Assembly (NCBI GenBank): GCA_937968065.1
Contig: CALBUD010000051.1
Span: forward strand, 1 to 32,000
Direction: 5' to 3'
Source of the DNA: Candidatus Iainarchaeum sp.
GTDB lineage: Archaea; Iainarchaeota; Iainarchaeia; Iainarchaeales; CSSED10-239
DNA: 32,000 bases
Shown here: one piece after another, positions 430 through 29,171 of the stretch
Layout of the letters: every line of letters starts with the position of its first letter
Position numbering within the stretch: the first letter of the stretch is position 1
Made by a program: the position numbers and the translations under genes
Notes under the pieces: model-generated
Databases searched by the model: none
Told to the model about the DNA's origin: nothing
What the model saw: only the letters and a program-made list of their open reading frames with translations

Positions 430-2604
430 TCATTCTTTAATAGATTTATCATTTTGTATATTATTATATACATTATTAATTACTTTTATTTCTGAAGTAT
501 TTATATGATGTTTTGATTTAAAAATGTTAGTAATTAATGATTTTTTAATTGGTTTAATTACATACTTTTCATCATGTTTTATTAAAATATAAACTAAATC
601 ATCTGTAACAGATAATACTTTATTATATTTATTACTTTTACCATCATTATATCCAATATAATCTCCTTTTTGAATTGGAAAGAATTTTCTACCAGTTGAA
701 ATATTATCATGAGTTTTTAATATTTCAGTTTTTTGTTGTCATTCAGCTTCAGTAAATTCATCTTCAAATAAACTTCTGTGAGTTTCTATTGTTTTAACTT
801 TATCTGTTGAAATAAAATTTTTATCATGTAATTTTTTATTTCTATCTAAAAAGTCATTACCTAAAATTGCATTAGGAAATACTTGTTTAACAACTCTTGC
901 ATGTTGTTTATTCTTTCCAGATTTTTTATCAAAATAATCATAGGTTATAGTTGCTCCTCTTATTGTAGCATCTTTTATTAAATCTGGAGGTAAATATTCA
1001 TCTTTATCAGATACTATTATAATAGATTCACTTTTTGCTAATGCTTCAGCATTTTTTTCTTCAATAAGTGTATTTTTATTTTCAAGTTTTCTATAAGTAA
1101 CTTCAACTCTAGATATATATTCTTTTTTAGCATCAGGCTCATCTACTTGTTTTATTCTATTTAATTCTCTATTTAAACTAATACTTGCTCTTGGAACAGA
1201 AATATATTTTCCATTTTCAACATAATAACCAGACATAGTTACTCCTTTACTATTCATAACCATATTATTATATGGAACTATATATCTAGAAATAATATCT
1301 CCAAATTTATCTTTTATATCAACAAGTATTAAATCTTCTTCAAAATTAATATTATTTCTAAGATGATTATATATATCTTCTGGAGTAGATAATAATTTTG
1401 TTATTTTTTTACCATAATAATAATCTCTTACTGAAGAATCAATTAAAGGTAATATCGAATTAGATTTTTGTAATTTTGCTAATTCAATATCTTCTTTTAC
1501 TTCGTTTATATATTGTTCTGATTCTTGTTTTTGTTTTGCTGTAATTTTAGATTCAAGTTTATTAGAATCCATTAATCTAAATAATATATGAATTCCTTTT
1601 TTAATTGAATTAATATTTTCTTCTTTTGATATAATTGGAGCAAGTAAATCTACTAATTTATTTATAGTAGTTTTAGCAGAGTTTTTATATCTAAATATTT
1701 TATTAAATTCTGGATCAATAAATTCATTATCTTCAGTAAAATGACCAATAAAGAATTTTTCTACATCTAAATCTGTTAAATCAATTCTTAATTTTTCATT
1801 TAATGAAGCATTATATTCTGTAAGTATTTCTAATAAATCATCTTTATTTATTTTTGTAGATATAGATTTAATTAAACCCATAAATAAAGATAAATCATTA
1901 TTGCTATTATGAAAAATTAAATGTCCTTTAACATTTTCATCTTTTACAACAACTGCATCATAAGTATCTGAGTCAAATTCTAAATTAAAAAATACTTGAG
2001 TTTTTCTATCATCTCCTTTATAATAGTTATTTATTAATTTTTTAATTAATTTTACTCCTTCGTGATTAATTGAAAGATCTCTTAAATCTTTTTCTTTGTC
2101 TGATAAATCATTAATTATATCTAAAGGAGAATTTACACCCTTTAAACCATTATAATTTATTTTAGATAAATATTTCTTTTGAATTGGATCATTTAATTTA
2201 TCTAAGAAAGTATTAAAAGTAATTTCAGTATATCTAGTTGATTTAGGTCCTTGATATAAAATTTTATCTGATTTATAAAATACATTTTTTCTTAATGCTT
2301 CAATTAATCCTACGTTTCTACTAGAACCTTCAAGTAATCTATTGAGATTATTAATTAAAGTATCTTTTTTAGATTTTTTAATAATAGATTTTATTACACC
2401 TCTTTGAAGTCCTGTATCAAATTCTAGTATTTTATCTATAAGTTTAGAGTCATCTTTTATTTGTTTACTGACTTCATAAAAAGATTCTATTTCTTTTTCT
2501 AGACTTGCATATAAGTCTTTATCAGAATCATTTATAGGTACAAGGCTAGCGGGCACTTTAACTTGCCCGCCGCCTGGTAACTTAATATAATAATAACATG
2601 CCAT
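430..2604 (-). CDS. Hypothetical virion-module protein (about 724 aa with TGA 739-741 read as Trp); 3' end uncertain
   Basis: ATG 2602-2604 overlaps the TAA of the upstream gene (TAATG). The ORF-track fragment 739..2604 ends at TGA. The same frame then stays free of TAA/TAG for a further 103 codons of non-repetitive sequence (..ILKTHDNISTGRKFFPIQKGDYIGYNDGKSNKYNKVLSV..) in about 20% GC DNA. The next TGA is at 430-432, and the first TAA (328-330) lies inside the synthetase fragment. The N-terminus is MACYYYIKLPGGGQ. Confidence 0.6.
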
Positions 2605-5600
2605 TAATCGCAGATAAAATTGATTAATAAATTTCTACTTTTCAATATTGATAAAATATTATTTGTTATAATATATTTAGAACTATCTTTAATTGTACTT
2701 TCTTCTATAAGAGTATTAATTGGAAAATTTCCATTCTTTAATACAATTTCTTTTCCTGATTTTTCCAATCTAAGTCTACCTTTATTATGTAATAACAAAA
2801 ATATTATATCTTGTTCTAAGTATTTTTCTAAATTATTTTTTAATGTTTTTTCTTCATCAGTTTGAGCATCCATTTCAATATCAAATACTTTAATTTTTCC
2901 TAAATCCACATTACTGTAAAAATTTAAGAAATTATAACCTAAAGTATTTTCATCTTTAATATAATCTTCAAACAAAGGAGTCAATCGTTTATCTCCATAA
3001 CTTTCATTATTAACTATAAGATTGTATAAATAAAATAAATCTTTATATTTAATAAGTCTGCCTTCTGCATTTCTAATTTTATAATTATCATTTATAGTAG
3101 AATCAACTTTATTAAAATTACTTAATAGTTCTTGAAACTTATCTATATTTATTGGTGAATTTAATTCATTAATTGGGAAAGTTGAAGTTATTTGAGTTGT
3201 TCAATGTCCTATTGAATTTCTAAGACTACTTAATTTTAAATTTTTAGCCAAGGGTGAATCTGATTTTTTTAATATTTCAAATATAACATTTTCCATTAAT
3301 ATTTTAAAATTAGCTATTCCATAATCAGTTTTTAAATCAATTACAAAATCTGTATTAGGAGTAACTACTTGAATATCATCTGGATATAATTCTGGATTTT
3401 TTTGAATATCTCCAATAGCTAAATTTTTAGCATTATTTGATTTATAAAATATTACAGATTCAATACCAGATGTTTGTATTAATTTTTTAGCATTAAATCT
3501 AATATGATCATTGTCTGTTTGTTTTAATCATTTTGATATAGTAAATTTATCAAAAGTAACTAAAGCTCTACTTAAAATAAGATCATTTATTTTTATACCA
3601 AAAGCATTATTTCCAAATCTTCCATTTAATACACTATTATTTAAATCAAGAATTTTTTCAATATTATCTTTAATAATATCTCTTGAAGTTGAGAAAGCAA
3701 AATTATATTTAGCAGATACTAAACTTAATGTATTATGAATTGTACTAACTCCAGAAACCATTGCTTTAAAGTGAGGAGAATTTTCTATTACATCAAAAAC
3801 ATTAATTGTATTTTTAAATAAATTATAATACTCTATTGTTGCTTTTCTATAATCATCATTTGCTTCATCCATATAATATCTAAAATCAAATTGACCTCCA
3901 ATTAAACTAACAGTTTTAGTATCAGGTTTTCCTTCTTTAGTTATATAATTAACTTTTATAGAATTTGCTTTAACTAATACTTCTTTTACATAATTACTTA
4001 CTTCATTTAAATAAAATTCTTTTTCTTCTTTAGTTTGTGCATTTTCTGCTAATTGTTTATTTTTATCGTCTTTTAATTTAAGTAAAGAATTTGATTCTAT
4101 AATTTTTTTAATTAATGTTGTTGGAACTTTATTAATTTCTATTAATTCATCTCATTTTGCAGGATTTCTTAATAAAACTATTTGTCTATTTAAAACAGAA
4201 TGTTCTCTAGCATACATACCAGATTCCAAATTAGATAAGAATCTATTTAACTCATCAACATTAGCAGCAGTTTTTTGATTTACTTTTAATATCTGAGCTA
4301 AAAATTTAAATTCTTGAGCACCTTCATATATTTCTCTAAATTGTTTTACTTCTTCTTCTTGACCTTCATTTTCTTGTAAATATTTAGTTAATAAAGCATC
4401 AACATAAACAGATTTAGATGATTTAAAAATATTACCTCTAATATTATTACTTATATATTTTCCTATTGGAGAATTCATATAAAGAGCAACATCTTTAATA
4501 CCATAACCTAAAGACATCAAATATAAATGCATAGATGCTAATTCAACTACCGCATTAATTTTTGACATAACTAACTCTTTAGCGTTATCAGTTGCTGCAG
4601 AAATAATACCTGATATTTCTAAAGCTGCCTGAATTTCAACATCAATTTCAGAAAGTTGTTGTTGTAATTCATCATAACCATAAATATTGAATATAGTATT
4701 CATATATTCTTGGCTTACATTAGTATTAGCTATTGTATGAATTAATTTTTTATTACCATTAATAGTAAATTCTTTTCTAAATACTTTATTATCATTATAA
4801 AAATTTATAGCTTCCTTGTCTATTAATACATCATTTTTATATAAATGTGTGTATCAATTATTATAATAATTACTTAAAGCCAAGAATACTTTTTGACCAT
4901 TTGCTCCAATACCTACGTCAGCTTTACCAACAGAAGCATCTTCTTGTTGTTTAAATGGTGAAATCCAATCTCAATTAGAAAGTAAATCTTCAGTATATTT
5001 TAATTGTTCTTTAGCAGCTTCAGCAGCTTTGTGTATAGAATCTATGCTAATTGGTTCAGAAGCAAATAAGAAATTACTTGGAGTACTAATGATTTCTTTA
5101 ATTTTAGATACAATAGAATTTCTAATAGCATTTCGTTTATAAATATATTCTGTACTTGTATTATGTTTATTTATAATATTTATATATAAATCAATAATTT
5201 TAGAATTATTAGCATATAAATTTTGATTTACAACTAAAGTATTATTAGTTTGTTTATCATCATTATTATTAGATTTTCTTAATACAGATATAAAATCTCT
5301 TATAATACTTAAAGGAAACATTGAAGATAATTTTTCAGGATCAGTTTCAGTTATATTATTTGATTCAATAAATTGAATAAAATTACTTATTTCTGTATCT
5401 ACATTATCTATGTTTGAACCTGAATCAACCGTTATTTCTTTACCGTTAGGTAAAGGAATTCTTTCTAAAATATCTAATTCTTCTTTAGTACTATAATCAA
5501 ATAAAGGAGTTCCTACTTCATAATGACCATTTTTATTAAATCCATATCCCATCATATAAGATTTATCAATATCAAAGTCAGAACCTTGATATCAAATTTG

Positions 5601-8600
5601 AAATATAGATACATAAGCATCATTTGATTCAGTATTAAAATATGCAACATTTTTCATTGTCATGAACGATTGCATAGATTGAGCAGGAATACGAGCCGAT
5701 ATTGTTTCTAAAGATTTTTGCCAGCTTGCAAATTTTTTATTAGATAATGTTTGTAAAACTGTTTGTATATTTTTAGATAACCAAGAAGAATCTAAAACAT
5801 CAGAATCTCTTTTTCTATAATTATAAAATTTTGAAAATATTTTAAAAGTTTCTTCATTTATATTTATAGGTTGATTATTTCTATTTATAGTATTAGTAAT
5901 TAAATCTTTATTATCATTATTTAATAAAGGAACTATAGCAGAAATATCTTCATCAAATGATCTAATAAAATTCCATAAAGAATATTGAAGATTTACATTT
6001 AATTGTCTAAATTTATTTGTTTTATTAGTTGCTTCATCTACAACTTTAACTTCTTTACTAATTTTTACATAAATAATATCAACTCCATTTTTATGAACTA
6101 CTTTTGAATTTTTAGGTTTTGTATATAAAGTTCCTCCAGTTGAAGAAATTCTTCTTAATTCTGTTTCTCCAGTTTCATCATTTGTTTTAGAAACAAATAA
6201 TTTAAGATTATCTTGTTCAATAGGTAAATCATGTACAAATTTAATATATACATTAGGATTTCCTTCAGATAATACAAATTTTAAATCAGCATTTGTATCA
6301 TCTTCTTTAAAATTAGATTCTAATTGTTCAATAAAATATTCAGGTCCAGTAACTTCGTTTATTGATTTACCTTTAATATCAAATGCTGAATATATTTTAG
6401 GTAATATTACTTCTGCAGGAATATGATTATAATTTTCAACTCTAACAGTATTTAATTCATTATATAATTTTTTTGCATTTTCTCACGGAGTAGATAAATT
6501 ATCTCCTTGTGGAAAATATATATTAAAATCAATAGGTAAATTAGAATTTGTTCTAGGAATCATTATTCTTCCTGAATCTAATAATTGAGTATTACGTTTA
6601 GTTCAAGCATTTAATTTTTTATCTAATTTATCAAATGATTCGTCTGTACCATTTAAAGGAATTTTAGCTCATTCAGCAAAAGATGTAAGATGTTGTAAAT
6701 ATTTTGGATTAATAAAAGTTTTATCTTTATCAGCCTTTTTAAAATTTTCTTGAAAAGTATTTAAAACAAATCTTAATTTTACTGAATCTAAATCAAATTT
6801 ATTATAATAAATTCCATTTACTGTAAATGTAGTTTCATCAGGTTTTAAATCTCTCGGAGCATTATATATTTTAACAACTTGATCTGATAAACTATTTACA
6901 TTTGTTTTAAAATTATAATATTTTTCAAGTGTATTTAAAGTAACAGGTTTACCATCAATTAAAATAGTATCTCAAAGATTAACTTCACCTACTGTTATAT
7001 TATCATTGGGAAAAAATGTTTCTAAATATTTATCTAATATTTGATTATTTGAAAGAACTTTAACATCAGGAAGACTAGTTCCTCATTTAAAAGCTAATTT
7101 TCTTAATTCACTTTGTTTATATATTTTTCCATCTTTCCCTTGATATAATTGAACTATACCGTGAGAAGGATTTATGACAGCACCAAGACCAGGATAATAA
7201 CGAGTTATAAATTCATTATTCATTTTTGTAATCATCTCTCTAGTAAAATCTCTAAAGAAGTGTTGATTACTAAACGGTAGTAATTGACCTATTCCAAAAG
7301 TTTCAGCTATTGTTTTTGCTAATGTTGTTCCTTCAGAATTTGCTAAATTATATGCAAATTGTTTAGATAAAACTGTATAAAAATCATTAATTTGTTTTTC
7401 AGTTAAATTATCAGAACTAGAATAATATTTTTTAGAAGATTCTTTTATTATTCTTGCTATATCTTGATATACTTCATTAGCTAAATAAGCAGTTGTAGGA
7501 TTTTGAGCAAGAGCAGATATAATCTGAGTAATTTCTTTTATTTTAGATTCATTTGCTGAGTGATTAGCATCTAACTGAGGTCCAATATAATCATTTTTAA
7601 ATGTAGTGTAAGTTAATCTTTCATTACTTTCTCATAATCGAGAAGGATTTAGATTAATTTGTCCAGATTTAAAAGAACTACCATTAGATATAAAATGAAT
7701 CATTTTATCTTTTAAAATATATTTTCCATCATTATCAACATAAGATGTTACTAAATCATATATTAAATCATTTGATCCTTCAGAAAATTCTAAATCTTCT
7801 GTAATAGTATCAGCTCCTCCAAATGCTTTTCATATATCAAATAAATTTTTTACTTCAGTCTCGACAATTGGTTTAGAAAGAATACCATTAAATTGTTTTG
7901 TATCAGGATTATAAGAATTACCTAATATAACAATTTTACCCTTAGAAATAGCATAATTATTTATTTTATAATAATTTCCATTTTTATAAAATCCTATAAA
8001 TGGTAATTCTTTTGAAGTATATTCTAAATCTGAAGGTAAATCAAATGCAGATAACATTTGATCTTGTTTATTTAACATATTAACTTCAGATTTTGAAGAA
8101 TCTCTAATTACTTCATTTGTTATTACAAATTCAGCATCCTTTTTAAGAGAACTTCCATAAGGACTTATAAAAGTACCAATTTCCTTTTTAGTACCTTGAT
8201 AACTTTTACTTGGAAAAGATTCTTCAATCATTCTAGAATAAGCATAATTTATTCAAGTTGATCCATCATGAATATCTTGGGTATGAGTTTTTCCAGATAA
8301 ATTACCTAACTTTGCACTACGATCTTGTATAATTGCTCCATTAATTTTATCAGGAACACCTAATTGATAATTCTTAATAGGAATTTCATAAGTAGCTGTA
8401 AAAGATACATTACGCTTACTCATGTTAGGAAGTCTAAAAGACATTTCTTTAAAGTACTCTGTTCAATGAAGTTTATTTTTATCTATATCACCTTTTTTAA
8501 TATCTTTATCAGATAAAAATTTAGAATCAATAAAATTATCTCCCCTAAATTTTAATTTAGATTCTTTATCTTTTGATTTAAAAGGGTGCATATATTCTGG

Positions 8601-20484: not shown

Positions 20485-22332
20485 TTATTCCATAATTAAT
20501 TGTTGAGCATTGCCAGACTGTACAGGAACCTGACTAGAATGTCAAATATTTCTTTGAACATCTGCAATAGTAGATTTTTTATCAATTGGACCTTGATTAA
20601 CTAAAGCATCTACAACTGCTGTAGCTGTATCCCTATAAGGAATTGTTATAATAGCTTTATAATAATCTTCTATATTAAATCTAGCATTTGGTGTAACGTC
20701 TTTAGCATTTTTACCTATTCCTACTGTTCATACTTGTTCTAAAATAGGAAGTATTGATCGTTTTTCATCAGAAGATAATTTTTTAACTCAAGGATTATTT
20801 TTAGTTAAACCCGTAGCATCATTTGTATATCCATACATTACTAAAAAAGGTTTGATATAAGCATTGTTTCTTATTACTTTTTCTCCACCTACTTGATCTA
20901 TTTTTAGATTAAAATCAGCATTTCTAAAATGTTTTTCTGCTTCAAGTGTAGTCCAAGTATCTTTCTTTTTTTCATATTCAGCATATACTTCTTTAAATTC
21001 TTGAAAAGCTTCATAATCGGGTTTACCATCTTCACCTACTGGCATATATATTTTTGCAGCTGAACTAGTCGGGTCATAAACAACATTGTTTAAATTATTT
21101 AATTCAACTTTCTTATCTCCAAAGTGAACTTTAGAGCCATCAGCAATCATATTATAATCATATTGAGATAATATTTGACCAACTGTACTAAATCCAATTG
21201 ATTCATCTTTCTTGGTCATAAGTGGTCCAACTGCTCCAATAGCACCTCTAAATAATACATTTAATTTAGGATCATTAAATGCAAATGTAGATAAAGGATC
21301 AGCTAATTTATCTTTGTGAAACATTTGAAATGCTGTTAAAGATTCTAATCCTTTTTCTGTTTGAGAACCTTTTATTGATGTCTCTGTTTCGGGACTTATG
21401 ATAGATGTAGTTTGTGGTTCTGTATATGAAATTAACATATCATAAATAAATGCTTTTGGGTTACTTTGTCCGTTCATTGCTGCAGAAGCTTCGAGTTTTA
21501 ATTGACTATTTCTACCTAACGAAGTTCATATATAACTTAATGCTTTATCTATATTCTGTCTTTTTCCTTTAAATTCTGATACAATTTTTGTATAATCTCC
21601 TGGAGTATTTAATGCTTCTTGTAGTGTTTTGATTGCATTCATATCTTCATTTGTTGGTTCTTTACCTCCAAATGATTTTAAATATTGTGCTAATTGGTCT
21701 TTAGAATAATATCTTTCGGTTTTCTCTGAAAAATCACTCATAATACCCATCATTTGTCTGATGTGATCAGAAATTTTTTCTAAACCTATTGCTTGATCCG
21801 CAACAGAAAATACAGATTTATTAAAACTTAATTGCGGATCATATTGTCTAGCCATCATTAATTCAGATACAGTCAAAGGATTATACTTACTTTGATCTTT
21901 CTTATATGTGTCTAAACTAATAGTTTTAATATTATTATCTTTATCTCTGACATAAAGTTCTCTACTTGGACCAATAGCTACTTCACTTAATCCTCCAGAT
22001 TCTTTAGCAACTTTTAAAGAGTTTTCTCATATTTCTTTATTATTTCGTAATTCATTGATTTTACCGATTAATTGATATGTTTTAGATCTTGATCCTTGAT
22101 CCATAAAATTAAAAGGGTCTGATTCTAATGCACCTAATTGTTCAACAAGTGCATTAACCTCATTTATCAATCCTCCTTTAGTTACTAATTCTTTATACAT
22201 AGTATCATCTAATAATCCCGCTTTCTTTTCTTCTGCTTGAGAAGATCCTGTTGGAGCAGCAGGAGCTGATTGAACAATGGGGGTGAACGTAGCAAATCCA
22301 CCCCCTTGTAATTTCCTAATATTATATTTCAT
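20485..22332 (-). CDS. Hypothetical virion protein (615 aa)
   Basis: ATG 22330-22332 overlaps the upstream TAA (TAATG), and it is the first start after the in-frame TAA at 22378. Frame 1 is open down to TAA 20485-20487, 1 nt before the next ATG. There are 5 in-frame TGA codons (20542, 20728, 20788, 21526, 22027), which join ORF-track pieces 20788.., 21526.. and 22027... The N-terminus is MKYNIRKLQGGGF. Confidence 0.75.
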
Positions 22333-25300
22333 TATTTGAATATCTTTAATAAAGATTTCTGCATTAATTCATTGTTTTTAAGAATAGTTTTATATATTCT
22401 TTCAACATCTTTTTGAGTTCTTGATAATTCACTTTTATATCTAGCTAACTCTTTTTTCTCAGATAAACTTCCACCTTTTGCTCTATAAGAAACTGAACCT
22501 GGCATTTGCATTGCTAATCCTAAATTTCTAAGATTATATTGGTAATTTTCCATATATTCTCTTATTCTATTAAGTCTGGCATCAAATTCTTTTGCAGCTT
22601 GAGATTCTTCAAAAGTAGTTACTGTTTCATCAGAATCATCTTGAGATCATGCTTGTTTAGCTTTTTCTCTAGCTTCTTGAATTTGTTGCGCCTCTTTCAT
22701 TTGTGCTCTATATTCAGGATCAGTCATAGCTGCATAATAATCAGAATATTTTTTATTCCTCTCTTTAATTTGCTTATTTTGAGCATAACCTTGGATAAGA
22801 TTTTGGAAAGCTGCATTATTTGCAAGCATTTTATTAGCATCAACTAAATGAAGTGCTCTTTCACCTTCAGCAGCAGAAGCCATATTTTTAGCCATTGTTT
22901 CTAAATTAACTAACTGAGTTTGTCTATTAGATTGATCTTGTCTTTCTAAAGTTTGTTGTATTTGTTGCTGATCAGCAATAACTCCTTTTTCTCTTAATCC
23001 TGCTCCTTGTCCTTCTGCTGTAAGTCTTGCTGCAAAACCTTTGTCTATATCAGCAATACTTCCTGCCATTCTTTTACCAACTGAAGATAATCTTGCAGCT
23101 TGTGTATCATAAAATGGAGCTAAAGTACTTGATGCTCTAAAATATTGTGGAGCAATTGTAGGTAATTTAAGTATTCCAGCTAATGCTGCTCTTTTTTGAG
23201 ATTCAGCTATTGCTTTATTTGCTTGAATAGTTTCACCATATCCAACTACATTTAATAAATCTGTTTCATTTATATTAGGTAATTTAGACTTAATATCTCC
23301 CAAATTTATTCTTCTATTTTTAATAATGTCGGATCCAGATTGAGGTTCAAACATTTTTCTTTCTGCAACATTCATGTCATCTTTAGTTACTTGATATACA
23401 TCTACTTTTCTTCTTGGAATAATTCCACTATTTTGCATTTTTAATACTCCACCTTCTTTATAACCTCTAAATCAACTTTGATTTAAATAACTGCCAACAT
23501 CGCCACGAAGAATTGCTCTTAATCTTTCATATTCATATTTAGGTAATTTAGATTCTTCTAAAGTCATTATTTTAGACTTACCTGCAGGATTAATTTTAAA
23601 TTGATCATCTATATTAAGATTCTTAATTTTATCAACCTGAGATTTATCAACCAAAGCTTTTTCTAATTCTGATTTAAACTTATTAAATTCAGTTTCATTG
23701 TGAGTTTTAATTGCTTCTTTATCTTTACCAAGTTTTCTTATAGATGATTTTTTAAAATTAGGAGCGTTTATTTCTTTAGTTAATGCAAATTTTTCTTTAC
23801 CTATTTCTAATTGAACTTTATCATTAGTTCCAGCTTTTCTTAAAGTATCAGCTTTTTTAATTGCGCCTTTATTTTTTAAGAAACCTTTTACAGCACCGGC
23901 TCCATAAAATACATTTTTTAAATCTTGCATTTGAACACCTTCTGTACCTGCTTCTGCTGCACCTTTAACTACATTAGCACCAGAATATAATACATTAGCA
24001 CCACCTAATACACCTAAACCTTGAGCAGCACCTTTACTAATTTTCTCCCATCCTGGTAATACACCTATAAGTTTTCTTAATCCTGTAGTTTCATCTAATA
24101 AAATTCTCTTAGCTAAACTAGGATCTTTTGGTACTACTGGTGGTGGTTGCGGTTTAAGAACAAACGGTTTAAATTCTTTAACTTCTTTTGTAATTTTTGA
24201 AGGAGTAAAACCTCTAGTTATATTTTGATCAAAAATAGTTTTTGCAGAATCACTTGTTCCTTTCTTAATTATAGTAGTTGATGTAGTTTTTGGATTAACT
24301 ATACCAGCAGCTTTTAATAAATCTAATTCTTTATCAGTAATATTAGCTGCTTTATAAGTTGATACTGTTCCTTGTTTTGACATTAATTTAGATACACCAC
24401 TAGCAAAATTTTTAGCATCTTCTGTTTTATCAACAACTTTTACTAAACTCTGTAATTTACCAGCTTTACTTGCGGCTTGAGTACCTATTTTTAATGCTCT
24501 TAATCCACCAAGTCCTATTGCACTTAAACCTATAAAACCTAAGTTCATTAAGTGAGTTCCTAAAGTAACATCATCGTCTCCTCTAATATCTCTAGCAATA
24601 TCAGCAACTGTAGTTACTGCTGCACCAGCCATACCAACACCGGGCAATAAAGAAGCAGCTGCACCACCAACTGATAATCAATCTAAGAAATCAGCATCAG
24701 CCATACTACCTCTAATGTCTCTAGTTTTAGATTCTTTAGGTTCTTCTTTTGGTTTATTAGCATACTTATTTAAGTATTCTTGTGCAGTTAATGATGTTCC
24801 AGATTGTGCTTTCAATATACCACCTTTTTTTCTAAGAATTTGCATATTTGGAGATCTAAGTGATTCTCCAACTTTACCAATAACAGATTGATCTTTAGGT
24901 GCTGGTACTTCAGATACTTGTAAATAATTATTTATAATTTTTCTTATAATATTTTTAGTTTCATGTCCAGCAAATCTATCTTGACTTTGTAATTTATCAA
25001 GTAATTCAATATATTTATTACTAGCTTGACTTCTAACTAAATAACTTGGGTCATTTTGTGAAATATATTTTAATTCAGAAATAGTTTTACCAATACTTTC
25101 AGTTTCAGAAGTTATATTACTTCTAAGAATTGCATCTGCTGTATTTAATGTAGCTGTTGTATTTTCAGGTTGAGTTCCTTGTATTGGTTTAAATGGATCA
25201 TTTTCAGAAAGAGTTAAATAATCTAAATATGCCGGTCTTAAACCTTCACCTTCTGCAAATCTTTGAATATCTACATTAACAGGTTCACCATTATCTTTTC

Positions 25301-26591
25301 TAGTATAAACACCATTTTGATTGTATTGTAATTCAATTTCTTTTTTTGTTTGAGGATCTTGTAAAATTAAAGTTTTTGTATAATTAAATCCTTTTTCTCC
25401 TCTTTCAGGAACTCCAAATATATTTCAACCTTCAAAACCAGTTACTTTACCTTGAATTGGTCTAAACCTTTCTCCTTCAAATTGAAATTTGAATTTAGAT
25501 GGATCATAACCTTCAACTCCTTCTTGAAATAATGTAGGAATACCTTCTATATGACTAAAATAAGTACCATAACCAGGTGCATCAGGATCAATATATGTAG
25601 ATTCAAATAATCCTGTTTTACCAATTACTATTTGTCTACCTGATTCATCTTCTAAAACTAATCCTTTTTTAGATATATCTTCTTGTAATCAAGGAGAATC
25701 AATGTTTTTTAATCTATTATCTGCAGAAATTTTAGTAAACCCTTTTTCAACAGCACCAGCAATTACTGAATCAGCATATCCTTGCTGTCTAAGATTCTTA
25801 ATAAATCCTTCAAGTTCATTTTGTTTAGCTTGTTGACTTTCTTGTTTTATCTGTTCTTCAGATTTAGGAAGTAATAATCCTCTAGGATTTCATCCTAATT
25901 TCTGACTTTCAGAAACAAAAGTATCTCAATCATTATTTTCTATTGCACTTAAAATAATTTCTTTATTTTCAACAGGTAAATATTCTCATCCTTCTTTTGG
26001 AGTAGTACCATATTCAGAAACATATTTTCTAGCAATATTCATTACTCTTTTCTTTTTAGCTGACTCATCTTCACCAAAAGTTGCTAAATCTTGTGCTCAT
26101 AAATTCTCTGCTCCTTCTTGTCCACCATATATTGATTTTTGTATATATAATCCAAGATCTCCAATTTTCTTTTTACCTAAATATCCTGCAGCTTTCTTTT
26201 GAGAATCACTACCTTGAGTAGATTTTTTATTTTGTAAATATTCATTAGTTCAATTAGCTATTAATGTATTGACGTTAGATTTAGGTGTAACTTGTCCAAA
26301 TATATTTGTTTTTATTCCTTCTTCACTCCCTGTTCAATCAATACCTTGTAATTCAATTGGAAGTTTACTTGCATCTATTTTATATTTTTGTGTAATTGGA
26401 TCATATTGATATGCTTGTTCAAGTGATCCAGATTTAATTAGTTTTCCTCAATTGGAAGCAGCTTCTCTTGCTGGTTGTTCTGCTTTTGCTGTAAGAATAC
26501 CTTCTCCAAATTTCTTACTTATGAAGTCTTCATAATCTTCATATAAATTTGGCGAAGTACCTCCAGATTGATATTTTTTAACAACTGACAT
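22332..26591 (-). CDS. Large virion/ejection-type protein (1419 aa) with a Gly/Ala-rich hydrophobic segment and a Gln/Ala-rich coiled-coil-like C-terminal part
   Basis: I hand-checked frame 0 from ATG 26589-26591 (upstream TAA 26619-26621) to TAA 22332-22334. There are 12 in-frame TGA codons: 22647, 23472, 24678, 25425, 25689, 25890, 25926, 25986, 26097, 26250, 26334 and 26448. This joins ORF-track pieces 22332.., 22647.. and 23472.. with an otherwise uncalled 2 kb. The N-terminus is MSVVKKYQSGGTS. Confidence 0.75.
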
Positions 26592-26665: not shown

Positions 26666-26932
26666 TTACTTCCTGCTTACTTTTACAAGTTTTCCGCCTT
26701 TTCTGGCATATACAGGTGCTTCTTGAGGAGCTGCTTCCATTCCTGCGCCACCACCTTCTAACATAGCCATAATAGCTTGAGCAAGCATTGCAGCGGCTTC
26801 TGGGCCTAACTGTTGTACGATCTGTTGTGCCATCTGCATTAATTGTTCTTCTGGTCCTGGACCACCAGCACCTGCGCCCGGTGCTGCTTCTGGAGCCATT
26901 GCTCCACCTTCTTGAAATCTTTTTACTTTCAT
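26666..26932 (-). CDS. Small Ala/Gly/Pro/Met/Gln-rich protein (88 aa) with a basic C-terminus; likely an abundant virion or internal protein
   Basis: The ORF runs from ATG 26930-26932 to TAA 26666-26668. It forms a GC island: 93/180 GC over 26701..26880 by hand count. The sequence is MKVKRFQEGGAMAPEAAPGAGAGGPGPEE...VYARKGGKLVKVSRK. It is followed by a hairpin and T-run. Confidence 0.7.
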   Translation of the reverse strand: MKVKRFQEGGAMAPEAAPGAGAGGPGPEEQLMQMAQQIVQQLGPEAAAMLAQAIMAMLEGGGAGMEAAPQEAPVYARKGGKLVKVSRK

Positions 26933-26940: not shown

Positions 26941-27516
26941 CTAGTTTTTTGATACATATTCAGGCTCTGAATCATTTTGAGCCTTTAAAAATTTAAACAC
27001 TCTCTTCCCTAATGCTTTATAGTCACTGTCTTTTTGAGTTACAGCAGCTTTCTTAGCAAACTTAATTAAAGTCTTAGTATTAGGTCTTGAAAAAATTCTT
27101 TCTCCGCCTTCCAATTCCATTTGCGGAGTTCCATCGTCATTTAACACTAACATTTTATCTTGTTTTACTTTTGTATTTGGAGAAAATTCTAATTCATCAC
27201 CTGGTTTTACTCCTGAATTAACATTTAATTCTAAAACAAAAGCTACGTCTTGTTCTGTAAACATTTCTTCTGAATTAGGTTCTCCTTGATAAACTGCTTT
27301 AATATTGAGATCAGTATCTATAAAAATAATATCTAAAGGAATTAAAGTATCTTTCATTCACATAGAAACTTCTTCTGTATCTGTAAAAGAAAATAACATA
27401 CCTTCATCTTGTGGTAAATTTTCTACTCCTTGAAGTCCCTTTTCTCTTTGTTCATCAGTTTCAGCAATACTTACTTTATATGTATTATCACCGATTCTTA
27501 TTTTTATTTTATCCAT
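26941..27516 (-). CDS. DUF192 (COG1430)-family protein with a C-terminal extension of about 75 aa (191 aa)
   Basis: The ORF runs from ATG 27514-27516 to TAG 26941-26943. The translation is MDKIKIRIGDNTYKVSIAETDEQREKGLQGVENLPQDEGMLFSFTDTEEVSM-W-MKDTLIPLDIIFID...VLELN..GVKPGDELEF. This follows the DUF192 pattern (GL.g...l..d.GMLF.f......fWMkNT.iPLDiiFid). The conserved Trp is encoded by TGA 27358-27360. Confidence 0.8.
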
Positions 27517-27656
27517 TTTTTATAATCTATGAAAGAAAGTTTACCTTGATTTTTAAGTACATTTTTTAAATGAATTGCTTCATTTCAATCATTTGTTTCT
27601 AAATGAGTTATATATTTTTTCTTCTCTATATTATAAGTAATAACTCAATATATCAT
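27504..27656 (-). CDS. Small hypothetical protein (50 aa)
   Basis: ATG 27654-27656 overlaps the upstream TAA (TAATG). The stop is TAA 27504-27506, giving a 13-nt overlap with the DUF192 start. There are two in-frame TGA codons (27645, 27585). The sequence is MIYWVITYNIEKKKYITHLETNDWNEAIHLKNVLKNQGKLSFIDYKKWIK. Confidence 0.4.
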
Positions 27657-27922
27657 TATTTAATAATATTTAAAATTAAATCATTCATAGAAAATAATTT
27701 TCCTCCATCTTTATGTTTTCACTTCCTTGCATTATCTGCAAAAGTAGCTCTTTTTCTTATTGCTGGATTAGGACTATTTTTTCCTTTAGAAATACATTCT
27801 TGTGTAACTTTTCCACCACAATATTCTGTAAATTTTCCTCTATTTTCTGGTTTAATATATATCTTTGATTTCCCACCTTTTTTATAAGATGATATTAATT
27901 CGGGTATAAAATTTAAATTCAT
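27656..27922 (-). CDS. Small basic protein (88 aa)
   Basis: ATG 27920-27922 lies 1 nt after the upstream TAA. ORF-track piece 27719..27922 ends at TGA, and the frame continues to TAA 27656-27658. The sequence is MNLNFIPELISSYKKGGKSKIYIKPENRGKFTEYCGGKVTQECISKGKNSPNPAIRKRATFADNARK-W-KHKDGGKLFSMNDLILNIIK. Confidence 0.65.
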
Positions 27923-27923
27923 A

Positions 27924-29171
27924 TTATTCTACTTGTTCTAATAACCCTGTGTTATCTTGCGTATTTTCTAATATTTCGTATACAAGTATTTTACCTGCTT
28001 CAATAGCTGCATCTTCGTCTCCTCTTTCAAATTTTTTAAGTAACTGTTCTATTTGATTAGTTAATTTTTTATGAAAGATAATTTCATTTACTTCTATTTC
28101 AGCATGTTGTTTTACTTCTCCACCTTCTTCAAATGTTACAACGGGAATCCCTTTATTAGTAACATGTTTTGCTATTTCTTCTGGTAAATTATGTTTTCTT
28201 GCATGTAATACTCCACTTGGTATAACATTTACAGGTTCTTTTGAAATAACTTCAACTACTCCACCTTTTTGTAATTTTAATAGATTGTGATTAGCTTTAG
28301 CTTTTATATTCTTTAAATCTAATAATTTAACACCAGATTTTGCAGCAAGAATATTAGTTGTTTGTCCACCTAAAAGTTGTTGTCTATTTTTATTAAGTAT
28401 ATCTTGAGTAGATGTCATAGAACCTAAAATATTTTGTTTGTTTCTATATCCTACGTCTGATGCTCTTGCTAATATACTTTGATAATTTTTAACATTTTGG
28501 TTTATTCCTTCTGGTCGTCTTGATTTTTTATTAAATAATCTACCTAATCCAGATATTTTTTTACCAGCTAAATCAGCTACATAATCTCCAGTGTATCCTG
28601 AACCAACATTAGTTGCTTGAGTTATATCCTGTTTATCTGCTGTTTTTCCTGTTAATTGGTTTATAGCATGTGCTGCGGTTAAACCTCATCCTATTGGATT
28701 AGATGCACCTAATAATAAAGGTGCTGCTATACTTGCATATTTTAATGCTTTATCTCCAGTATTTTTAATATCTGCTTCTCTTCCAACACCAGTAAAACTT
28801 AATGCTGTAGAAGCTAATCCTGTTATTCCTCCAATTCCACCAAGTGCTTTTAATGCTCCTGCTCCTGCAGCACCTAATTTACTTGCTTGTGCTCCAATTA
28901 CTGTCGAACCTCTATTAGTTACTGCTCCAAATGCATCTGGAACTGCTTTACTAAACACTGAAGGTGAAGCACTTTTAAAAGTATTAAATGCTTTTACACC
29001 CTCTTTTACTCCTTTAGCAGCCTGATAAAGTTGGGGAGCTGTAGCAACAGCCATCCCCAACCAATCAGTTTTTTTGTTACCAGATGAAATAACAGGAGAG
29101 GAATATAAATAAGGAGATTGAAACATACTTTGATTAAACCAGTCAATTGACTGTAATGTATTTTCATCCAT
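27924..29171 (-). CDS. Hypothetical virion/ejection-type protein (415 aa) with a Gly/Ala-rich hydrophobic segment
   Basis: The ORF runs from ATG 29169-29171 (3 nt after the upstream TAA) to TAA 27924-27926. One in-frame TGA (28686) joins ORF-track pieces 27924..28418 and 28686..29171. I hand-checked the 28419..28685 gap and found it free of TAA/TAG. Confidence 0.75.

What the first reader, a model, noticed from the sequence alone, without database searches (positions are those of the whole stretch)
2566..28277. Recurrent basic-hydrophobic-x-G-G (LxGG-like) motif at the N-termini of five of the ten visible minus-strand proteins, and again internally or C-terminally
Seen at N-termini:
- MKYNIRKLQGGG|F (22297..22314)
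- MKVKRFQEGG|A (26903..26920)
- MSVVKKYQSGG|T (26559..26579)
- MACYYYIKLPGGG|Q (2566..2583)
- MNLNFIPELISSYKKGG|K (27872..27886)

Seen internally or at C-termini:
- LLKLQKGG|V (28260..28277)
- ILRKKGG|I (24819..24836)
- SYRAKGG|S (22470..22487)
- VYARKGG|KLVKVSRK* (26693..26710)

Gly is uncommon in this AT-rich proteome, so GG within the first 17 residues of half the proteins looks non-random. This is a qualitative judgement; I ran no statistics.

Established: hydrophobic-x-G-G followed by cleavage is the specificity of adenain-type and ASFV pS273R-type virion maturation proteases, and of LxGG-specific papain-like or deubiquitinase-type proteases.

Inference: the motif could mark proteolytic maturation of virion or cargo proteins. 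Alternatively it could be a shared packaging or targeting tag. No protease gene is visible in this window.
Basis: partly seen in the sequence, partly recalled or inferred. Interest (0 to 1): 0.7.

Follow-up and report, generated by a model that had tools for sequence, protein, structure and literature searches.

The report
Conserved GG peptide on crassvirus cargo proteins
A short basic-aromatic-x-x-Gly-Gly peptide really does recur, far beyond chance, at the ends and module boundaries of the proteins that a crAss-like gut phage packs into its virion and injects, and the evidence favours an uncleaved docking or turn element over a protease cut site.

Summary
All nine listed sites sit at the stated coordinates once TGA is read as Trp. 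GG lies in the first 17 residues of 5 of 11 proteins versus 0.8 expected (P~1e-4).

The window is the muzzle / cargo / virion-RNA-polymerase block of a divergent TGA-recoded crassvirus. The peptide marks the small and mid-sized cargo proteins gB, gC, gF, gG and gH. It is conserved in their orthologues in seven related contigs and a standard-code 117-kb genome, where it hits 4 of 113 proteins versus 0.28 expected.

The same kind of peptide punctuates cargo proteins of PhiCrAss001, DAC15, IAS virus and prototypical crAssphage.

The consensus is aromatic(-3)-x-x-G-G-x-aliphatic(+2), not LxGG. AlphaFold puts the GG at a beta-hairpin turn in its one confident case.

The only homologous site covered by a cryo-EM model (gp45 GG427-428) lies inside a continuous modelled stretch. 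No maturation protease was recognised in the window or the complete relative.

I favour an uncleaved docking or positioning handle for packaged and ejected proteins (0.42). Cleavage is not excluded (0.15). gK's site is unsupported. The motif appears undescribed in the papers I searched.

The parts
29175..32000 (-). gA, C-terminal 941 aa of the crassvirus muzzle protein (context; marks the start of the cargo block)
   Evidence: Pfam crAss_MUZ, E 1.4e-17, above the curated cut-off. phrog_28748 virion structural protein. 43% identical to the MT835470.1 muzzle orthologue.
27924..29171 (-). gB, 415-aa Gly-rich cargo-block protein. Its own N-terminus lacks the peptide, but most homologues have it.
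   Evidence: 613 homologues. Family N-termini include MRKIMKFQWGN, MRKILKYQTP, MHNIRKYNWGG.
28260..28277 (-). gB internal KLQKGG (residues 299-304), directly before the most conserved block of the family (NVIPxGALHARKHN...)
   Evidence: GG columns identical in 5 of 5 orthologues. K[FL]xxGGK is present in most of 41 homologues and absent in three. The AF2 model has low confidence at this site.
28119..28136 (-). gB TFEEGG (residues 346-351), predicted hairpin turn
   Evidence: AF2 strands 342-347 and 353-358 flank GG350-351, at pLDDT about 50. GG columns 0.88 conserved.
27656..27922 (-). gC, 88-aa stand-alone copy of the Cys-containing GKFTxYCGG module of cargo protein C1, with a GG peptide on each side
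   Evidence: 69% identical to PhiCrAss001 gp45 residues 371-423. phmmer E 1.7e-18 to PDB 7QOG chain 'Cargo protein 1 gp45'.
27872..27886 (-). gC YKKGG (residues 13-17), N-terminal flank of the module
   Evidence: Aligns with gp45 KDGG373-374. The L008 orthologue reads SHKKGG.
27701..27718 (-). gC KHKDGG (residues 69-74), C-terminal flank of the module
   Evidence: Aligns with gp45 NAFGG427-428. That site lies inside the cryo-EM-modelled stretch 425-552.
26941..27516 (-). gE, DUF192 protein encoded inside the cargo block (context)
   Evidence: Pfam DUF192, E 2e-24. Same position in L008, L012, L013, L015 and MT835470.1.
26666..26932 (-). gF, 88-aa protein: N-terminal peptide, variable Pro/Ala linker, conserved helix, variable linker, C-terminal GG hairpin
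   Evidence: 233 homologues. Alignment A1. AF2: helix 27-60, strands 74-78 and 81-85.
26903..26920 (-). gF N-terminal RFQEGG (residues 5-10)
   Evidence: K2, Q7, G9 and G10 conserved at 90% or more in 50 homologues. Codons vary synonymously across orthologues.
26678..26713 (-). gF C-terminal hairpin VYARK-GG-KLVKV (residues 74-85).
   Evidence: G79 and L82 invariant; Y75, G80 and K81 at 90% or more. AF2 beta-hairpin with GG at the turn, pLDDT about 84.
22332..26591 (-). gG, 1419-aa cargo-block protein with a Gly-rich hydrophobic centre
   Evidence: Orthologues of 1408-1689 aa at the same position in all related loci. No Pfam or PHROG hit.
26559..26579 (-). gG N-terminal KKYQSGG (residues 5-11)
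   Evidence: Orthologues read KKYKVGG, RKYGSGG, RKYNPGG, RKFSPGG, RKYQTGG, KKLQNAG (twice).
24819..24836 (-). gG internal LRKKGG (residues 586-591), followed by ILKAQ
   Evidence: Present in 3 of 5 orthologues.
23448..23465 (-). gG internal GYKEGG (residues 1043-1048), followed by VLKMQ. It looks like a repeat of the 590 site.
   Evidence: Present in 3 of 5 orthologues.
22470..22487 (-). gG near-C-terminal YRAKGG (residues 1369-1374)
   Evidence: Orthologues read AKSGGKL, YAKGGRL and NKKGSKL; the site is missing in L012.
20485..22332 (-). gH, 615-aa cargo-block protein. It matches PhiCrAss001 C2 in position and size only.
   Evidence: Synteny. hhalign against C2 proteins gives probability 0.1%, so homology is not shown.
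22297..22314 (-). gH N-terminal KLQGGG (residues 7-12), followed by FATFTP
   Evidence: Orthologues read KLQGGGF (three), KFGGGGF, KYQGGGGF, KYAVGGI, KFAVGGI, KLQGGGI.
11673..20483 (-). gI, 2936-aa giant with a central P-loop domain. It has no conserved GG peptide (context).
   Evidence: Pfam AAA_19, AAA_22 and AAA_30 hits at residues 1670-1880. The TRKGG site at residue 2152 is not conserved.
2604..11663 (-). gJ, 3019-aa probable virion RNA polymerase. It has no GG peptide at its N-terminus (context).
   Evidence: Contains DFDID. BLASTP 1.5e-4 to PhiCrAss001 gp50. E 1e-46 and 3e-31 to the split MT835470.1 orthologues. No PDB sequence hit.
2566..2583 (-). gK N-terminal KLPGGG (residues 8-13): unsupported instance, possibly chance
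   Evidence: gK has no homologue other than itself. It lacks the basic-aromatic-Q context.

Best explanation
The peptide is a short conserved structural element of crassvirus ejection (cargo) proteins. A basic/aromatic strand runs into a Gly-Gly tight turn. In internal and C-terminal copies, a second strand with an aliphatic residue at +2 follows.

I propose it is not cut. I propose it works as a docking or positioning handle. The terminal copies (N-termini of gF, gG, gH and most gB homologues; C-terminus of gF and of C1-type proteins) would tether the ends of packaged proteins to a repeated site. That site could be inside the portal / tail-barrel / muzzle conduit, or on one another, by strand or hairpin addition. 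This would mark the proteins for encapsidation and fix the order and direction in which they leave. Internal copies would do the same for individual modules.

Shown:
- the motif, its enrichment and its conservation;
- its restriction to cargo-block proteins;
- constraint on both sides of the GG;
- a predicted hairpin;
- one homologous site lying within continuous density in a solved virion.

Inferred: the binding partner, the role in packaging or ejection order, and the absence of cleavage at the other sites.
For: 1. Specificity. The motif-bearing genes lie between the muzzle gene (crAss_MUZ) and the giant genes. This matches PhiCrAss001 gp44-gp50, where gp45, gp46, gp47, gp49 and gp50 are packaged cargo. 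In the complete relative MT835470.1 the N-terminal pattern hits 4 of 113 proteins. Three are the consecutive gH, gG and gF orthologues and the fourth resembles crAssphage gp48.

2. Sharing between unrelated proteins. gF, gG, gH and gB show no other similarity to each other, yet start with the same basic-[FYL]-[QK]-x-GG peptide.

3. Stronger conservation than the rest of the protein. gH is 22% identical to its MT835470.1 orthologue overall, but KLQGGG is kept. GG-column identity is 0.88 against a protein mean of 0.32-0.39. In gF the two GG peptides and the core helix are conserved while the linkers vary freely.

4. Order-wide occurrence. C1 proteins of PhiCrAss001, DAC15, IAS virus, cr128 and bajarodcaudo virus, and crAssphage gp45, gp47 and gp48, carry such peptides near the N-terminus, at module boundaries and at basic C-termini.

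5. Density and shape of the motif. GG density is 13.1 per 1000 aa in cargo proteins versus 2.6 in muzzle and giant proteins. Aromatic at -3 is 24% versus 8% background. Aliphatic at +2 is 46% versus 20%.

6. Structure. AF2 places gF's C-terminal GG at a hairpin turn with pLDDT about 84. A gB GG is also placed at a hairpin turn, with low confidence.

7. Solved virion. gp45 residues 425-552 are modelled bound to the portal wing, so GG427-428 lies within a continuous chain. This site aligns with gC GG73-74.

8. Selection acts on the peptide, not the DNA. GG, F/Y and Q codons vary synonymously and there are no SD-like leaders.
Against: - No binding partner has been identified and no structure shows an N-terminal copy bound to anything.
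- AF2 leaves gF's N-terminal copy unstructured, at pLDDT 57.
- The gB model is poor overall (pLDDT 50), and the LQKGG site falls in a low-confidence coil.
- The giant packaged proteins gI and gJ, and PhiCrAss001 gp47, gp49 and gp50, lack the peptide. It therefore cannot be a universal packaging signal. crAssphage gp45, a giant, does start MDVLKFLQGG.
- The window's own gB lacks the N-terminal copy, and three gB homologues lack the internal copy. Single copies are therefore dispensable.
- My attempts to link gB to the portal-binding domain of C1, and gH to C2, failed.
- A short N-terminal tag shared by packaged proteins is also what a cleaved targeting sequence looks like.
Confidence: 0.42

Rival explanations
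1. Proteolytic maturation. Some or all GG peptides are cleavage sites. The N-terminal ~10 residues would be removed like a T4-type targeting propeptide. C1-type proteins would be polyproteins cut at module boundaries, by a phage or host protease not yet recognised.
For: - The peptide sits at a short but variable distance from Met1 (GG at residues 7-17) on several consecutive packaged proteins.
- GG peptides bracket modules that are free-standing genes in one lineage and parts of one protein in another. gC corresponds to gp45 371-428, the module is duplicated in tandem in DAC15, and it is relocated in MT835470.1.
- Crassviruses do encode proteases of unknown role. These include a zincin domain on crAssphage gp45 (HESLH at residue 1743), a small zincin gp56 with a homologue in MT835470.1 (E 1.6e-18), and an aspartyl protease, PhiCrAss001 gp66.
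- gp45 was never detected above decoy level as an intact band in my re-analysis of the published MALDI data.
- Gly-Gly-Xaa processing is established for ASFV pS273R (PMC9950752).
Against: - The hydrophobic position is mostly P5 or P6, not P4.
- Residues after the GG are conserved.
- The GG is predicted as a hairpin turn, and cleavage there would split the hairpin.
- gp45 GG427-428 lies within continuous modelled density.
- GG is replaced by AG, or spaced differently (QTPAG, QWGN), in some orthologues.
- No HExxH occurs in any window or L001 protein.
- No protease family was found in the window or in MT835470.1.
- PhiCrAss001 gp47, gp49 and gp50 run intact on gels.
- Neither PhiCrAss001 paper mentions processing.
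Confidence: 0.15
2. Generic fold element. The peptide is simply the preferred way these proteins build beta-turns and hairpins at domain edges. It would be inherited through duplication and shuffling of C1-derived modules, with no common partner and no signalling role.
For: - The two-sided constraint and the hairpin prediction need no partner.
- Cargo proteins are Gly-rich overall, at 8-16% in gB, gC, gF and gG against 4-5% in the giants.
- Internal copies are only partly conserved and are sometimes deleted without loss of the neighbouring domain.
- Module shuffling is evident.
Against: - A fold element does not explain why the copy at the extreme N-terminus is the best-conserved part of gG and gH across very divergent orthologues.
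- In gF that N-terminal copy is followed by a variable Pro/Ala linker rather than a second strand.
- It does not explain why unrelated cargo proteins share the extra basic-[FY]-Q signature.
Confidence: 0.25
3. Post-ejection function. The basic-aromatic hairpins act after ejection by binding DNA, membrane or peptidoglycan in the host envelope. For example, they could help form the trans-envelope channel or hold the leading DNA end.
For: - The C-terminal copies are followed by strongly basic tails: GGKLVKVSRK, GGKVRTKKKK, GGYLTIKKKK, GGKQSCR.
- C1-type proteins carry predicted membrane segments, and in one case a lysozyme-like annotation.
- Bayfield et al. expect gp45 and gp46 to form the channel.
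Against: - There is no direct evidence.
- Many copies are not basic (NIFDTGG, FSAYGG, NAFGG).
- The one structurally located neighbour of such a site contacts the portal inside the virion, not DNA.
Confidence: 0.13
4. Artefact. The pattern is chance, mis-set start codons, or a nucleotide-level signal such as a Shine-Dalgarno-like GGAGG upstream of the true start.
For: - A public gene call starts gF at Met12, just after the GG (P0001, 77 aa).
- The tight regular expression was chosen after seeing the data.
Against: - Shuffle tests in the window and in an independent genome reject chance.
- The upstream peptide stays in frame with conserved amino acids and synonymous codon changes. GGAGG is not conserved, and no gene in the window has an SD-like leader.
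- MT835470.1 gF has no Met after the GG.
Confidence: 0.03

Closest known systems
Cargo protein C1 (gp45) of Bacteroides phage PhiCrAss001 (PDB 7QOG, 7QOI, 7QOJ, 7QOL, 8CKB; Bayfield et al. 2023, PMC10172136)
   Same: - Same genomic position, right after the muzzle gene.
- gC is 69% identical to gp45 residues 371-423, and both flanking GG peptides align.
- gp45 carries the same kind of peptide near its N-terminus (NIFDTGG), before the tail-barrel helix (FSAYGGP), around the Cys module, and at its basic C-terminus (AKGGKVRTKKKK), which resembles gF's C-terminus.
   Different: - Here the equivalent material is spread over several genes (gB, gC, gF, gG), with a DUF192 gene among them.
- gB, gF, gG and gH have no detectable sequence or profile similarity to gp45 or gp46.
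- The peptide sits at the very N-terminus (GG at residues 9-12) rather than around residue 20.
- The motif itself is not discussed in the paper.
Capsid targeting sequence (CTS) of bacteriophage T4 internal proteins (reviewed in PMC3012670)
   Same: A short N-terminal peptide is the only thing shared by otherwise diverse proteins that are packaged in the head and injected. It addresses them to the assembling particle.
   Different: - From my own knowledge, not tested here: the T4 CTS binds the scaffolding core and is removed by the prohead protease gp21 at Leu/Ile-x-Glu sites.
- Here no scaffold interaction, protease or cleavage is shown.
- The sequence is unrelated.
- The peptide also occurs internally and at C-termini.
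Gly-Gly-Xaa maturation sites of ASFV pS273R and adenovirus protease (clan CE cysteine proteases; PMC9950752)
   Same: A Gly-Gly dipeptide recurs in virion-core proteins or polyproteins, and cleavage after GG is an established maturation mechanism in those viruses.
   Different: - No clan CE or other cysteine protease was found.
- The hydrophobic residue is not at P4 in most sites.
- The P1'-P3' positions are conserved.
- The GG is predicted as a hairpin turn.
- One homologous site lies within continuous density in a solved virion.
Double-glycine leader peptides of bacteriocins, cut by C39 peptidase-domain ABC exporters
   Same: An N-terminal peptide that ends in GG.
   Different: - From my own knowledge: those leaders are 15-25 residues long and acidic/hydrophobic (consensus LSxxELxxIxGG), and are encoded next to a C39 transporter.
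- Here the peptide is about 10 residues and basic.
- It occurs on proteins of 88-1419 aa that are delivered by a virion.
- No C39 domain appears in the Pfam scans.

Membership tests
Substrate sites of adenain / ASFV pS273R / LxGG-specific (PLpro, DUB) cysteine proteases | Hydrophobic residue at P4 with Gly at P2 and P1 (Phi-x-G-G, cut after the second Gly) | tested here: not met
Over 144 GG sites in cargo proteins the aromatic enrichment peaks at -3 from the first Gly, which is P5 (24% versus 8% background). RFQEGG, KYQSGG, YKKGG and LQKGG have it at P5. YRAKGG, YARKGG and LRKKGG have it at P6.
Substrate sites of adenain / ASFV pS273R / LxGG-specific (PLpro, DUB) cysteine proteases | A cognate papain-like or clan CE protease encoded by the virus | tested here: not met
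   No peptidase family appears in any window protein (Pfam; PHROGs). None appears among 107 proteins of the complete relative MT835470.1 except the fibre chaperone Peptidase_S74. Caveats: only 25 of 37 families were listed for one batch, and Pfam can miss divergent folds. A host protease was not examined.
Substrate sites of adenain / ASFV pS273R / LxGG-specific (PLpro, DUB) cysteine proteases | The chain is actually cut after GG in mature virions | tested here: inconclusive
   Indirect evidence only. PhiCrAss001 gp45 residues 425-552 are modelled as one stretch that includes GG427-428, and this site aligns with gC GG73-74. gp45 is not identifiable in the published MALDI band lists. No N-terminal data exist for any motif-bearing protein.
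Substrate sites of adenain / ASFV pS273R / LxGG-specific (PLpro, DUB) cysteine proteases | Little constraint on residues C-terminal to the scissile bond | tested here: not met
   In gF, K81 is 90% or more conserved and L82 is invariant. Aliphatic at +2 is 46% versus 20% background. gH keeps F/I-x-[TY]-[FT]-[TP] after the GG.
T4-type capsid targeting sequence (N-terminal packaging tag of injected internal proteins) | A short N-terminal peptide shared by otherwise unrelated packaged proteins | tested here: met
   gF, gG, gH and most gB homologues start with basic-[FYL]-[QK]-x-GG. The pattern hits 4 of 113 proteins in MT835470.1 versus 0.28 expected. That these proteins are packaged is inferred from synteny with PhiCrAss001; it was not measured.
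T4-type capsid targeting sequence (N-terminal packaging tag of injected internal proteins) | The peptide is necessary and sufficient to load a protein into the particle | not testable with these tools
   This needs reporter fusions and deletion mutants in a cultured crassvirus.
T4-type capsid targeting sequence (N-terminal packaging tag of injected internal proteins) | Removed by the prohead protease after assembly | tested here: inconclusive
   No prohead protease family was found. There is no N-terminal proteomics.
Crassvirus cargo proteins (C1 gp45 / C2 gp46 of PhiCrAss001) | Encoded between the muzzle gene and the giant RNA-polymerase-associated genes | tested here: met
   gA is crAss_MUZ. 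The order gA-gB-gC-gD-gE-gF-gG-gH-gI-gJ parallels gp44-gp50. The order is conserved in L008, L009, L012, L013, L015 and MT835470.1.
Crassvirus cargo proteins (C1 gp45 / C2 gp46 of PhiCrAss001) | Sequence or profile homology to gp45 or gp46 | tested here: not met
   Met only for gC (E 1.7e-18). gB family versus C1 alignment: hhalign probability 0.7%. gH family versus C2 alignment: probability 0.1%. gF and gG have no BLASTP hit. I therefore call gB, gF, gG and gH cargo-block proteins, not C1 or C2 family members.
Crassvirus cargo proteins (C1 gp45 / C2 gp46 of PhiCrAss001) | Physically present inside virions | not testable with these tools
   This phage lineage is uncultured and no virion proteome exists for it.

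The most novel reading that the evidence does not exclude
Crassvirus C1-type cargo proteins are polyproteins. A subset of the GG peptides would be cut by an unrecognised protease, for example the small conserved zincin, the zincin domain on some giant cargo proteins, or a host enzyme. The N-terminal decapeptides of gF, gG and gH would be removed propeptides analogous to the T4 capsid targeting sequence.

This would overturn the current picture in which a single gp45 chain threads through the portal from capsid to tail. It would also give Crassvirales, the most abundant human gut phages, a maturation pathway that nobody has described.
Probability: 0.12. Interest if true: 0.75.

Novelty: new variant of a known kind. 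Interest (0 to 1): 0.5.

Why it matters
Crassvirales are the most abundant phages of the human gut. How they load about 5 MDa of protein into the capsid and tail, and release it in order, is an open question raised by the PhiCrAss001 structure.

A short peptide that is conserved across the order and specific to the small and mid-sized ejection proteins gives a concrete handle on that question. It makes several things possible:
- **Experiments.** It predicts which residues to mutate.
- **Structure.** It suggests peptides to look for in unassigned cryo-EM density. One example is the unassigned 14-residue segment at the muzzle.
- **Annotation.** It could flag cargo genes in the thousands of uncultured crassvirus genomes whose cargo proteins have no detectable homology to each other.
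- **Engineering.** If it proves to be a packaging tag, it could be used to load foreign proteins into these phages, as the T4 targeting sequence has been used.

If the peptide is only a fold element, the finding is a modest annotation aid.

Tried and rejected
1. **gB C-terminal block as the portal-binding domain of C1.** By eye, NVIPxGALHARKHN...EEGG...NEIIF resembled GGSHEENP...LVEEGEVIFNDY. Rejected: hhalign probability 0.7%, best Foldseek E-value against PDB 1.7, and no phmmer hit in PDB.

2. **gH as a homologue of PhiCrAss001 C2, with GGG equivalent to the Pro in KF[RQ]PFSY.** Rejected: hhalign probability 0.1%.

3. **Shine-Dalgarno or other nucleotide-level origin of the N-terminal GG.** Rejected on synonymous codon variation and the absence of SD-like leaders.

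4. **Fused zincin protease in the window's giant proteins, as in crAssphage gp45.** No HExxH occurs in any window or L001 protein.

5. **Peptide-mass-fingerprint re-analysis of the Shkoporov 2018 MALDI peak lists, to see whether gp45 is intact.**
   - gp47 and gp50 are intact in band 3; gp49 and gp44 are intact in band 4.
   - gp45 never exceeds decoy matches in bands 1-9.
   - Bands 11-13 were truncated in the stored file.
   - The result is inconclusive for C1.

6. **MS peptide lists in the Bayfield 2023 supplement.** Only a reporting summary is held.

7. **Conservation of gK's KLPGGG.** gK is an ORFan.

8. **Retrieving the window's own 34.8-kb contig for flanking genes.** The proteins are not on record in the contig index. 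The gF look-up gave only a 905-bp contig.

9. **gJ DFDID region against PDB sequences.** No hit. The RNA polymerase assignment therefore remains probable only.

10. **TGA = Gly (code 25).** Rejected, because the TGA in gC aligns with a conserved Trp.

11. **tblastn of gF against GenBank phages.** No match, although BLASTP later found a weak gF orthologue in MT835470.1.

Full report
**What the window is**

Under the standard bacterial code the minus strand breaks into 37 open frames of at least 100 aa. If TGA is read as a sense codon, it resolves into 11 long frames that tile the whole 32 kb. I defined these genes, all on the minus strand:

| Gene | Coordinates | Length |
|---|---|---|
| gA | 32000-29175 | partial, 941 aa |
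| gB | 29171-27924 | 415 aa |
| gC | 27922-27656 | 88 aa |
| gD | 27656-27504 | 50 aa |
| gE | 27516-26941 | 191 aa |
| gF | 26932-26666 | 88 aa |
| gG | 26591-22332 | 1419 aa |
| gH | 22332-20485 | 615 aa |
| gI | 20483-11673 | 2936 aa |
| gJ | 11663-2604 | 3019 aa |
| gK | 2604-328 | 758 aa |

TGA encodes Trp, not Gly. gC's only Trp codon is TGA, and that residue aligns with a conserved Trp in PhiCrAss001 gp45 and other C1 proteins.

The domain hits identify the block:
- gA matches Pfam crAss_MUZ, the crassvirus muzzle protein (E 1.4e-17).
- gE is a DUF192 protein, and gI has a central P-loop domain.
- gJ contains DFDID and weakly matches PhiCrAss001 gp50 (1.5e-4).

The gene order matches PhiCrAss001 gp44 (muzzle), gp45 (cargo C1), gp46 (cargo C2) and gp47/gp49/gp50 (RNA-polymerase-associated giants). 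In that phage all of these except the muzzle are packaged inside the virion and ejected. The same order recurs in related contigs of 81-152 kb and in a 99.7-kb contig. The window is therefore the muzzle / cargo / virion-RNA-polymerase block of a divergent, TGA-recoded member of the Crassvirales.

Yes. With composition-preserving shuffles of each protein:
- GG within the first 17 residues occurs in 5 of 11 proteins against 0.81 expected (P = 1.5e-4).
- The tighter string [KR][FYLIV]Q.GG occurs 4 times against 0.07 expected. I chose that pattern after seeing the data.
- The plain GG count is only slightly raised (44 versus 35).

**Conservation**

A 43%-identity relative from IMG/VR (L001), six further contigs (L008, L009, L012-L015) and a standard-code 117-kb GenBank genome (MT835470.1) all keep the peptide on the orthologous proteins.

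- gG starts MSVVKKYQSGG, MSVVKKYKVGG, MAVVRKYGSGG, MAQIKIRKYNPGG, MAQIKIRKFSPGG, MSQAIRKYQTGG, MAQIKKLQNAG or MALVKKLQNAG.
- gH starts ...KLQGGGF, ...KFGGGGF, ...KYQGGGGF, ...KYAVGGI, ...KFAVGGI or ...KLQGGGI.

gF belongs to a family of at least 233 small proteins. In 50 aligned members:
- The N-terminal MK-x-K-x-[FL]-Q-x-G-G has K2, Q7, G9 and G10 at 90% or more.
- The C-terminal P-V-Y-A-[KR]-K-G-G-K-L-V has G79 and L82 invariant, and Y75, G80 and K81 at 90% or more.
- These two peptides and a central helix are conserved, while the linkers between them vary freely.

Most gB homologues start MRKIMKFQWGN, MRKILKYQTP or MHNIRKYNWGG, although the window's own gB does not. The internal K[FL]xxGGK of gB is present in most of 41 homologues.

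Site-by-site results:
- Fully conserved: gB LQKGG.
- Partly conserved: gG LRKKGG (3 of 5) and gG YRAKGG (3-4 of 5).
- Not conserved: gI TRKGG, a site I had added myself.
- Untestable: gK is an ORFan, so its KLPGGG cannot be checked and may be chance.

In MT835470.1, a pattern derived from the window hits the N-termini of 4 of 113 proteins against 0.28 expected, and 0 of 3000 shuffles reach 4. Three of the four are the consecutive gH, gG and gF orthologues.

The signal acts on the protein, not the DNA. GG, Phe/Tyr and Gln codons vary synonymously between orthologues, GGAGG is not conserved, and no gene has a Shine-Dalgarno-like leader.

**The motif is order-wide and is not LxGG**

gC is 69% identical to PhiCrAss001 gp45 residues 371-423, while the rest of the genome is about 20-25% identical to PhiCrAss001. 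The GG peptides on both sides of this Cys-containing module align with gp45 GG373-374 and GG427-428.

C1 proteins of PhiCrAss001, DAC15, IAS virus, cr128 and bajarodcaudo virus carry similar peptides in several places:
- near the N-terminus (NIFDTGG, NIYEDGG);
- before the tail-barrel helix ([FY]SAYGGP);
- around the Cys or GKFT module, which is duplicated in tandem in DAC15;
- at basic C-termini (AKGGKVRTKKKK, SKGGYLTIKKKK, SKGGKLKKKK).

In prototypical crAssphage:
- gp47 has KQYAVGG, TKYKEGG and a C-terminal RKRRKLGGKQSCR.
- gp48 has repeated KCGG[KR].
- The giant gp45 starts MDVLKFLQGG.

I compared 144 GG sites in cargo proteins with 62 in muzzle and giant proteins:

| Measure | Cargo proteins | Muzzle and giant proteins |
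|---|---|---|
| GG sites per 1000 aa | 13.1 | 2.6 |
| Aromatic at -3 (observed vs background) | 24% vs 8% | 10% vs 10% |
| Aliphatic at +2 (observed vs background) | 46% vs 20% | 31% vs 23% |

The consensus is therefore aromatic-x-x-G-G-x-aliphatic, often with basic residues, and it is constrained on both sides of the GG.

**Structure**

AlphaFold2 with the 50-sequence gF alignment predicts a helix at residues 27-60. It also predicts a C-terminal beta-hairpin: strand 74-78 (VYARK), GG 79-80, strand 81-85 (KLVKV), at pLDDT about 84. The N-terminal copy is left unstructured.

The gB model is poor (mean pLDDT 50). It again places a GG (350-351) at the turn between two strands, and gives no information at LQKGG.

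In the PhiCrAss001 virion, gp45 residues 425-552 are modelled bound to the portal wing. By sequence, that stretch begins A425-F426-G427-G428-W429. This GG therefore lies within a continuous modelled chain.

**Cleavage or not?**

Against cleavage:
- The hydrophobic residue is at P5 or P6 in most sites.
- The post-GG positions are conserved.
- The GG is predicted as a hairpin turn.
- One homologous site lies in continuous cryo-EM density.
- GG is replaced by AG or by differently spaced variants in some orthologues.
- No zincin motif occurs in window or L001 proteins.
- No protease family was found in the window.
- None was found among 107 proteins of MT835470.1, apart from the tail-fibre chaperone Peptidase_S74.
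- Neither PhiCrAss001 paper mentions a protease, a scaffold or processing.
- My peptide-mass-fingerprint re-analysis of the published MALDI peak lists shows gp50 and gp47 (band 3) and gp49 and gp44 (band 4) running intact.

For cleavage, or at least not excluding it:
- The N-terminal placement on consecutive packaged proteins is what a cleaved targeting peptide looks like. T4 is the precedent.
- GG peptides bracket modules that are separate genes in some lineages.
- Crassviruses encode proteases of unknown role: a zincin domain on crAssphage gp45, a small zincin gp56 with a homologue in MT835470.1, and the PhiCrAss001 gp66 aspartyl protease.
- gp45 itself was never detectable in the gel-band data.

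**Conclusion**

| Explanation | Confidence |
|---|---|
| Uncleaved strand-turn(-strand) element serving as a docking or positioning handle for packaged and ejected proteins | 0.42 |
| Generic fold element without a common partner | 0.25 |
| Proteolytic maturation | 0.15 |
| Post-ejection DNA, membrane or peptidoglycan binding | 0.13 |
| Artefact | 0.03 |

The motif is not mentioned in the crassvirus papers I could search. I rate it a new variant of a known kind, namely shared address or docking peptides on phage internal proteins. Interest is moderate and could be upgraded quickly by re-mining existing virion mass-spectrometry data.

**Claims I withdrew**

- gB's conserved C-terminal block is not demonstrably the C1 portal-binding domain.
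- gH is only a positional analogue of C2.
- gJ's identity as the virion RNA polymerase is probable rather than shown.

Noticed in passing
window 1-32000, minus strand: Every gene needs TGA read as Trp. There are 83 in-frame TGA codons in gA-gK plus the dubious gL, against 22 TGG. The related genome MT835470.1 has the same gene block but uses the standard code. Recoding therefore differs within this crassvirus lineage.
   Followed up: partly
window about 18000 (inside gI, 11673-20483): G+C steps from 22-24% (positions 1-18000: gK, gJ and the C-terminal two-thirds of gI) to about 30% (18000-30000: the gI N-terminus through gB). The boundary falls inside a single 2936-aa gene.
   Followed up: no
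window 27656-27922 (gC): The 50-aa Cys module GKFTEYCGGKVTQECISKGKNSPNPAIRKRATFADNARKW is 69% identical to PhiCrAss001 gp45, while the rest of the genome is about 20-25% identical. It is a free-standing gene here, is duplicated in tandem in DAC15 C1, and sits at a distant locus in MT835470.1 (mt102). A Cys-less variant (GTFTAAAKKHGKSVQAFA...) replaces it in cr128. It behaves as a mobile, hyper-conserved module of unknown function.
   Followed up: partly
window 26941-27516 (gE): A DUF192 (COG1430) protein of unknown function is encoded inside the cargo block. It holds this position in L008, L012, L013, L015 and MT835470.1, but is absent from PhiCrAss001 and crAssphage. It has a C-terminal extension containing ELEGGERIFS.
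   Followed up: partly
window 328-2604 (gK); 129-473 (gL): gK (758 aa) has no homologue other than itself among 5.8 billion proteins and ends in an odd ...KLFFYFFF tail. gL is an overlapping 114-aa frame that is probably not a gene.
   Followed up: partly
window 26666-26932 (gF); public protein P0001: A public gene call starts gF at Met12 (77 aa). That cuts off the conserved N-terminal MKVKRFQEGG peptide. Similar truncated calls (for example P0098) occur in the family, so automated annotation under-reports the motif.
   Followed up: partly
window 26619-26975, minus strand, alternative frame: A 118-aa open frame overlaps gF in another frame. It is probably spurious (a G+C-richer stretch with few stops) and I did not examine it.
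   Followed up: no
window 11673-20483 (gI), residues about 1670-1880: The giant cargo-block protein carries a P-loop NTPase or SF1-helicase-like domain (AAA_19, AAA_22, AAA_30). crAssphage gp45 carries a zincin domain instead. So the enzymatic payload of this giant differs between crassvirus families.
   Followed up: no
L010 (NCBI GCA_053580305.1, JBMDUZ010000001.1, 166 kb); contigs of 126-212 kb carrying gF or gB homologues: A gF homologue lies at the end of a 166-kb contig binned as a Candidatus Saccharimonadaceae MAG. Many homologues sit on contigs of 126-212 kb. These may be mis-binned phage contigs or unusually large crassvirus genomes.
   Followed up: no
L011 33219-33560 (crAssphage gp56); MT835470.1 111214-111594 (mt104): A small (113-126 aa) zincin-like protein with HEAIH is conserved between crAssphage and the distant MT835470.1 (34% identity, E 1.6e-18). 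In crAssphage it is encoded among tail genes. Its function is unknown, and it is the only recurrent protease-like candidate I saw.
   Followed up: partly
MT835470.1 106500-107327 (mt096); L011 22835-23629 (crAssphage gp48): These are small basic proteins with repeated K-C-G-G-[KR] peptides (FKDKCGGKAKRR, SFKCGGMAKKR; LTLKCGGRVRRK, NKYKCGGRRK, VYRCGGHRR*). This is a Cys-containing variant of the same motif. mt096 also starts MATKFQQGG.
   Followed up: partly
PhiCrAss001 MALDI data (PMC6235969 supplement, bands 1-2): In my re-analysis, the two highest gel bands (above 300 kDa, on a reducing gel) match the muzzle gp44 together with gp34. This suggests an SDS-resistant complex.
   Followed up: no
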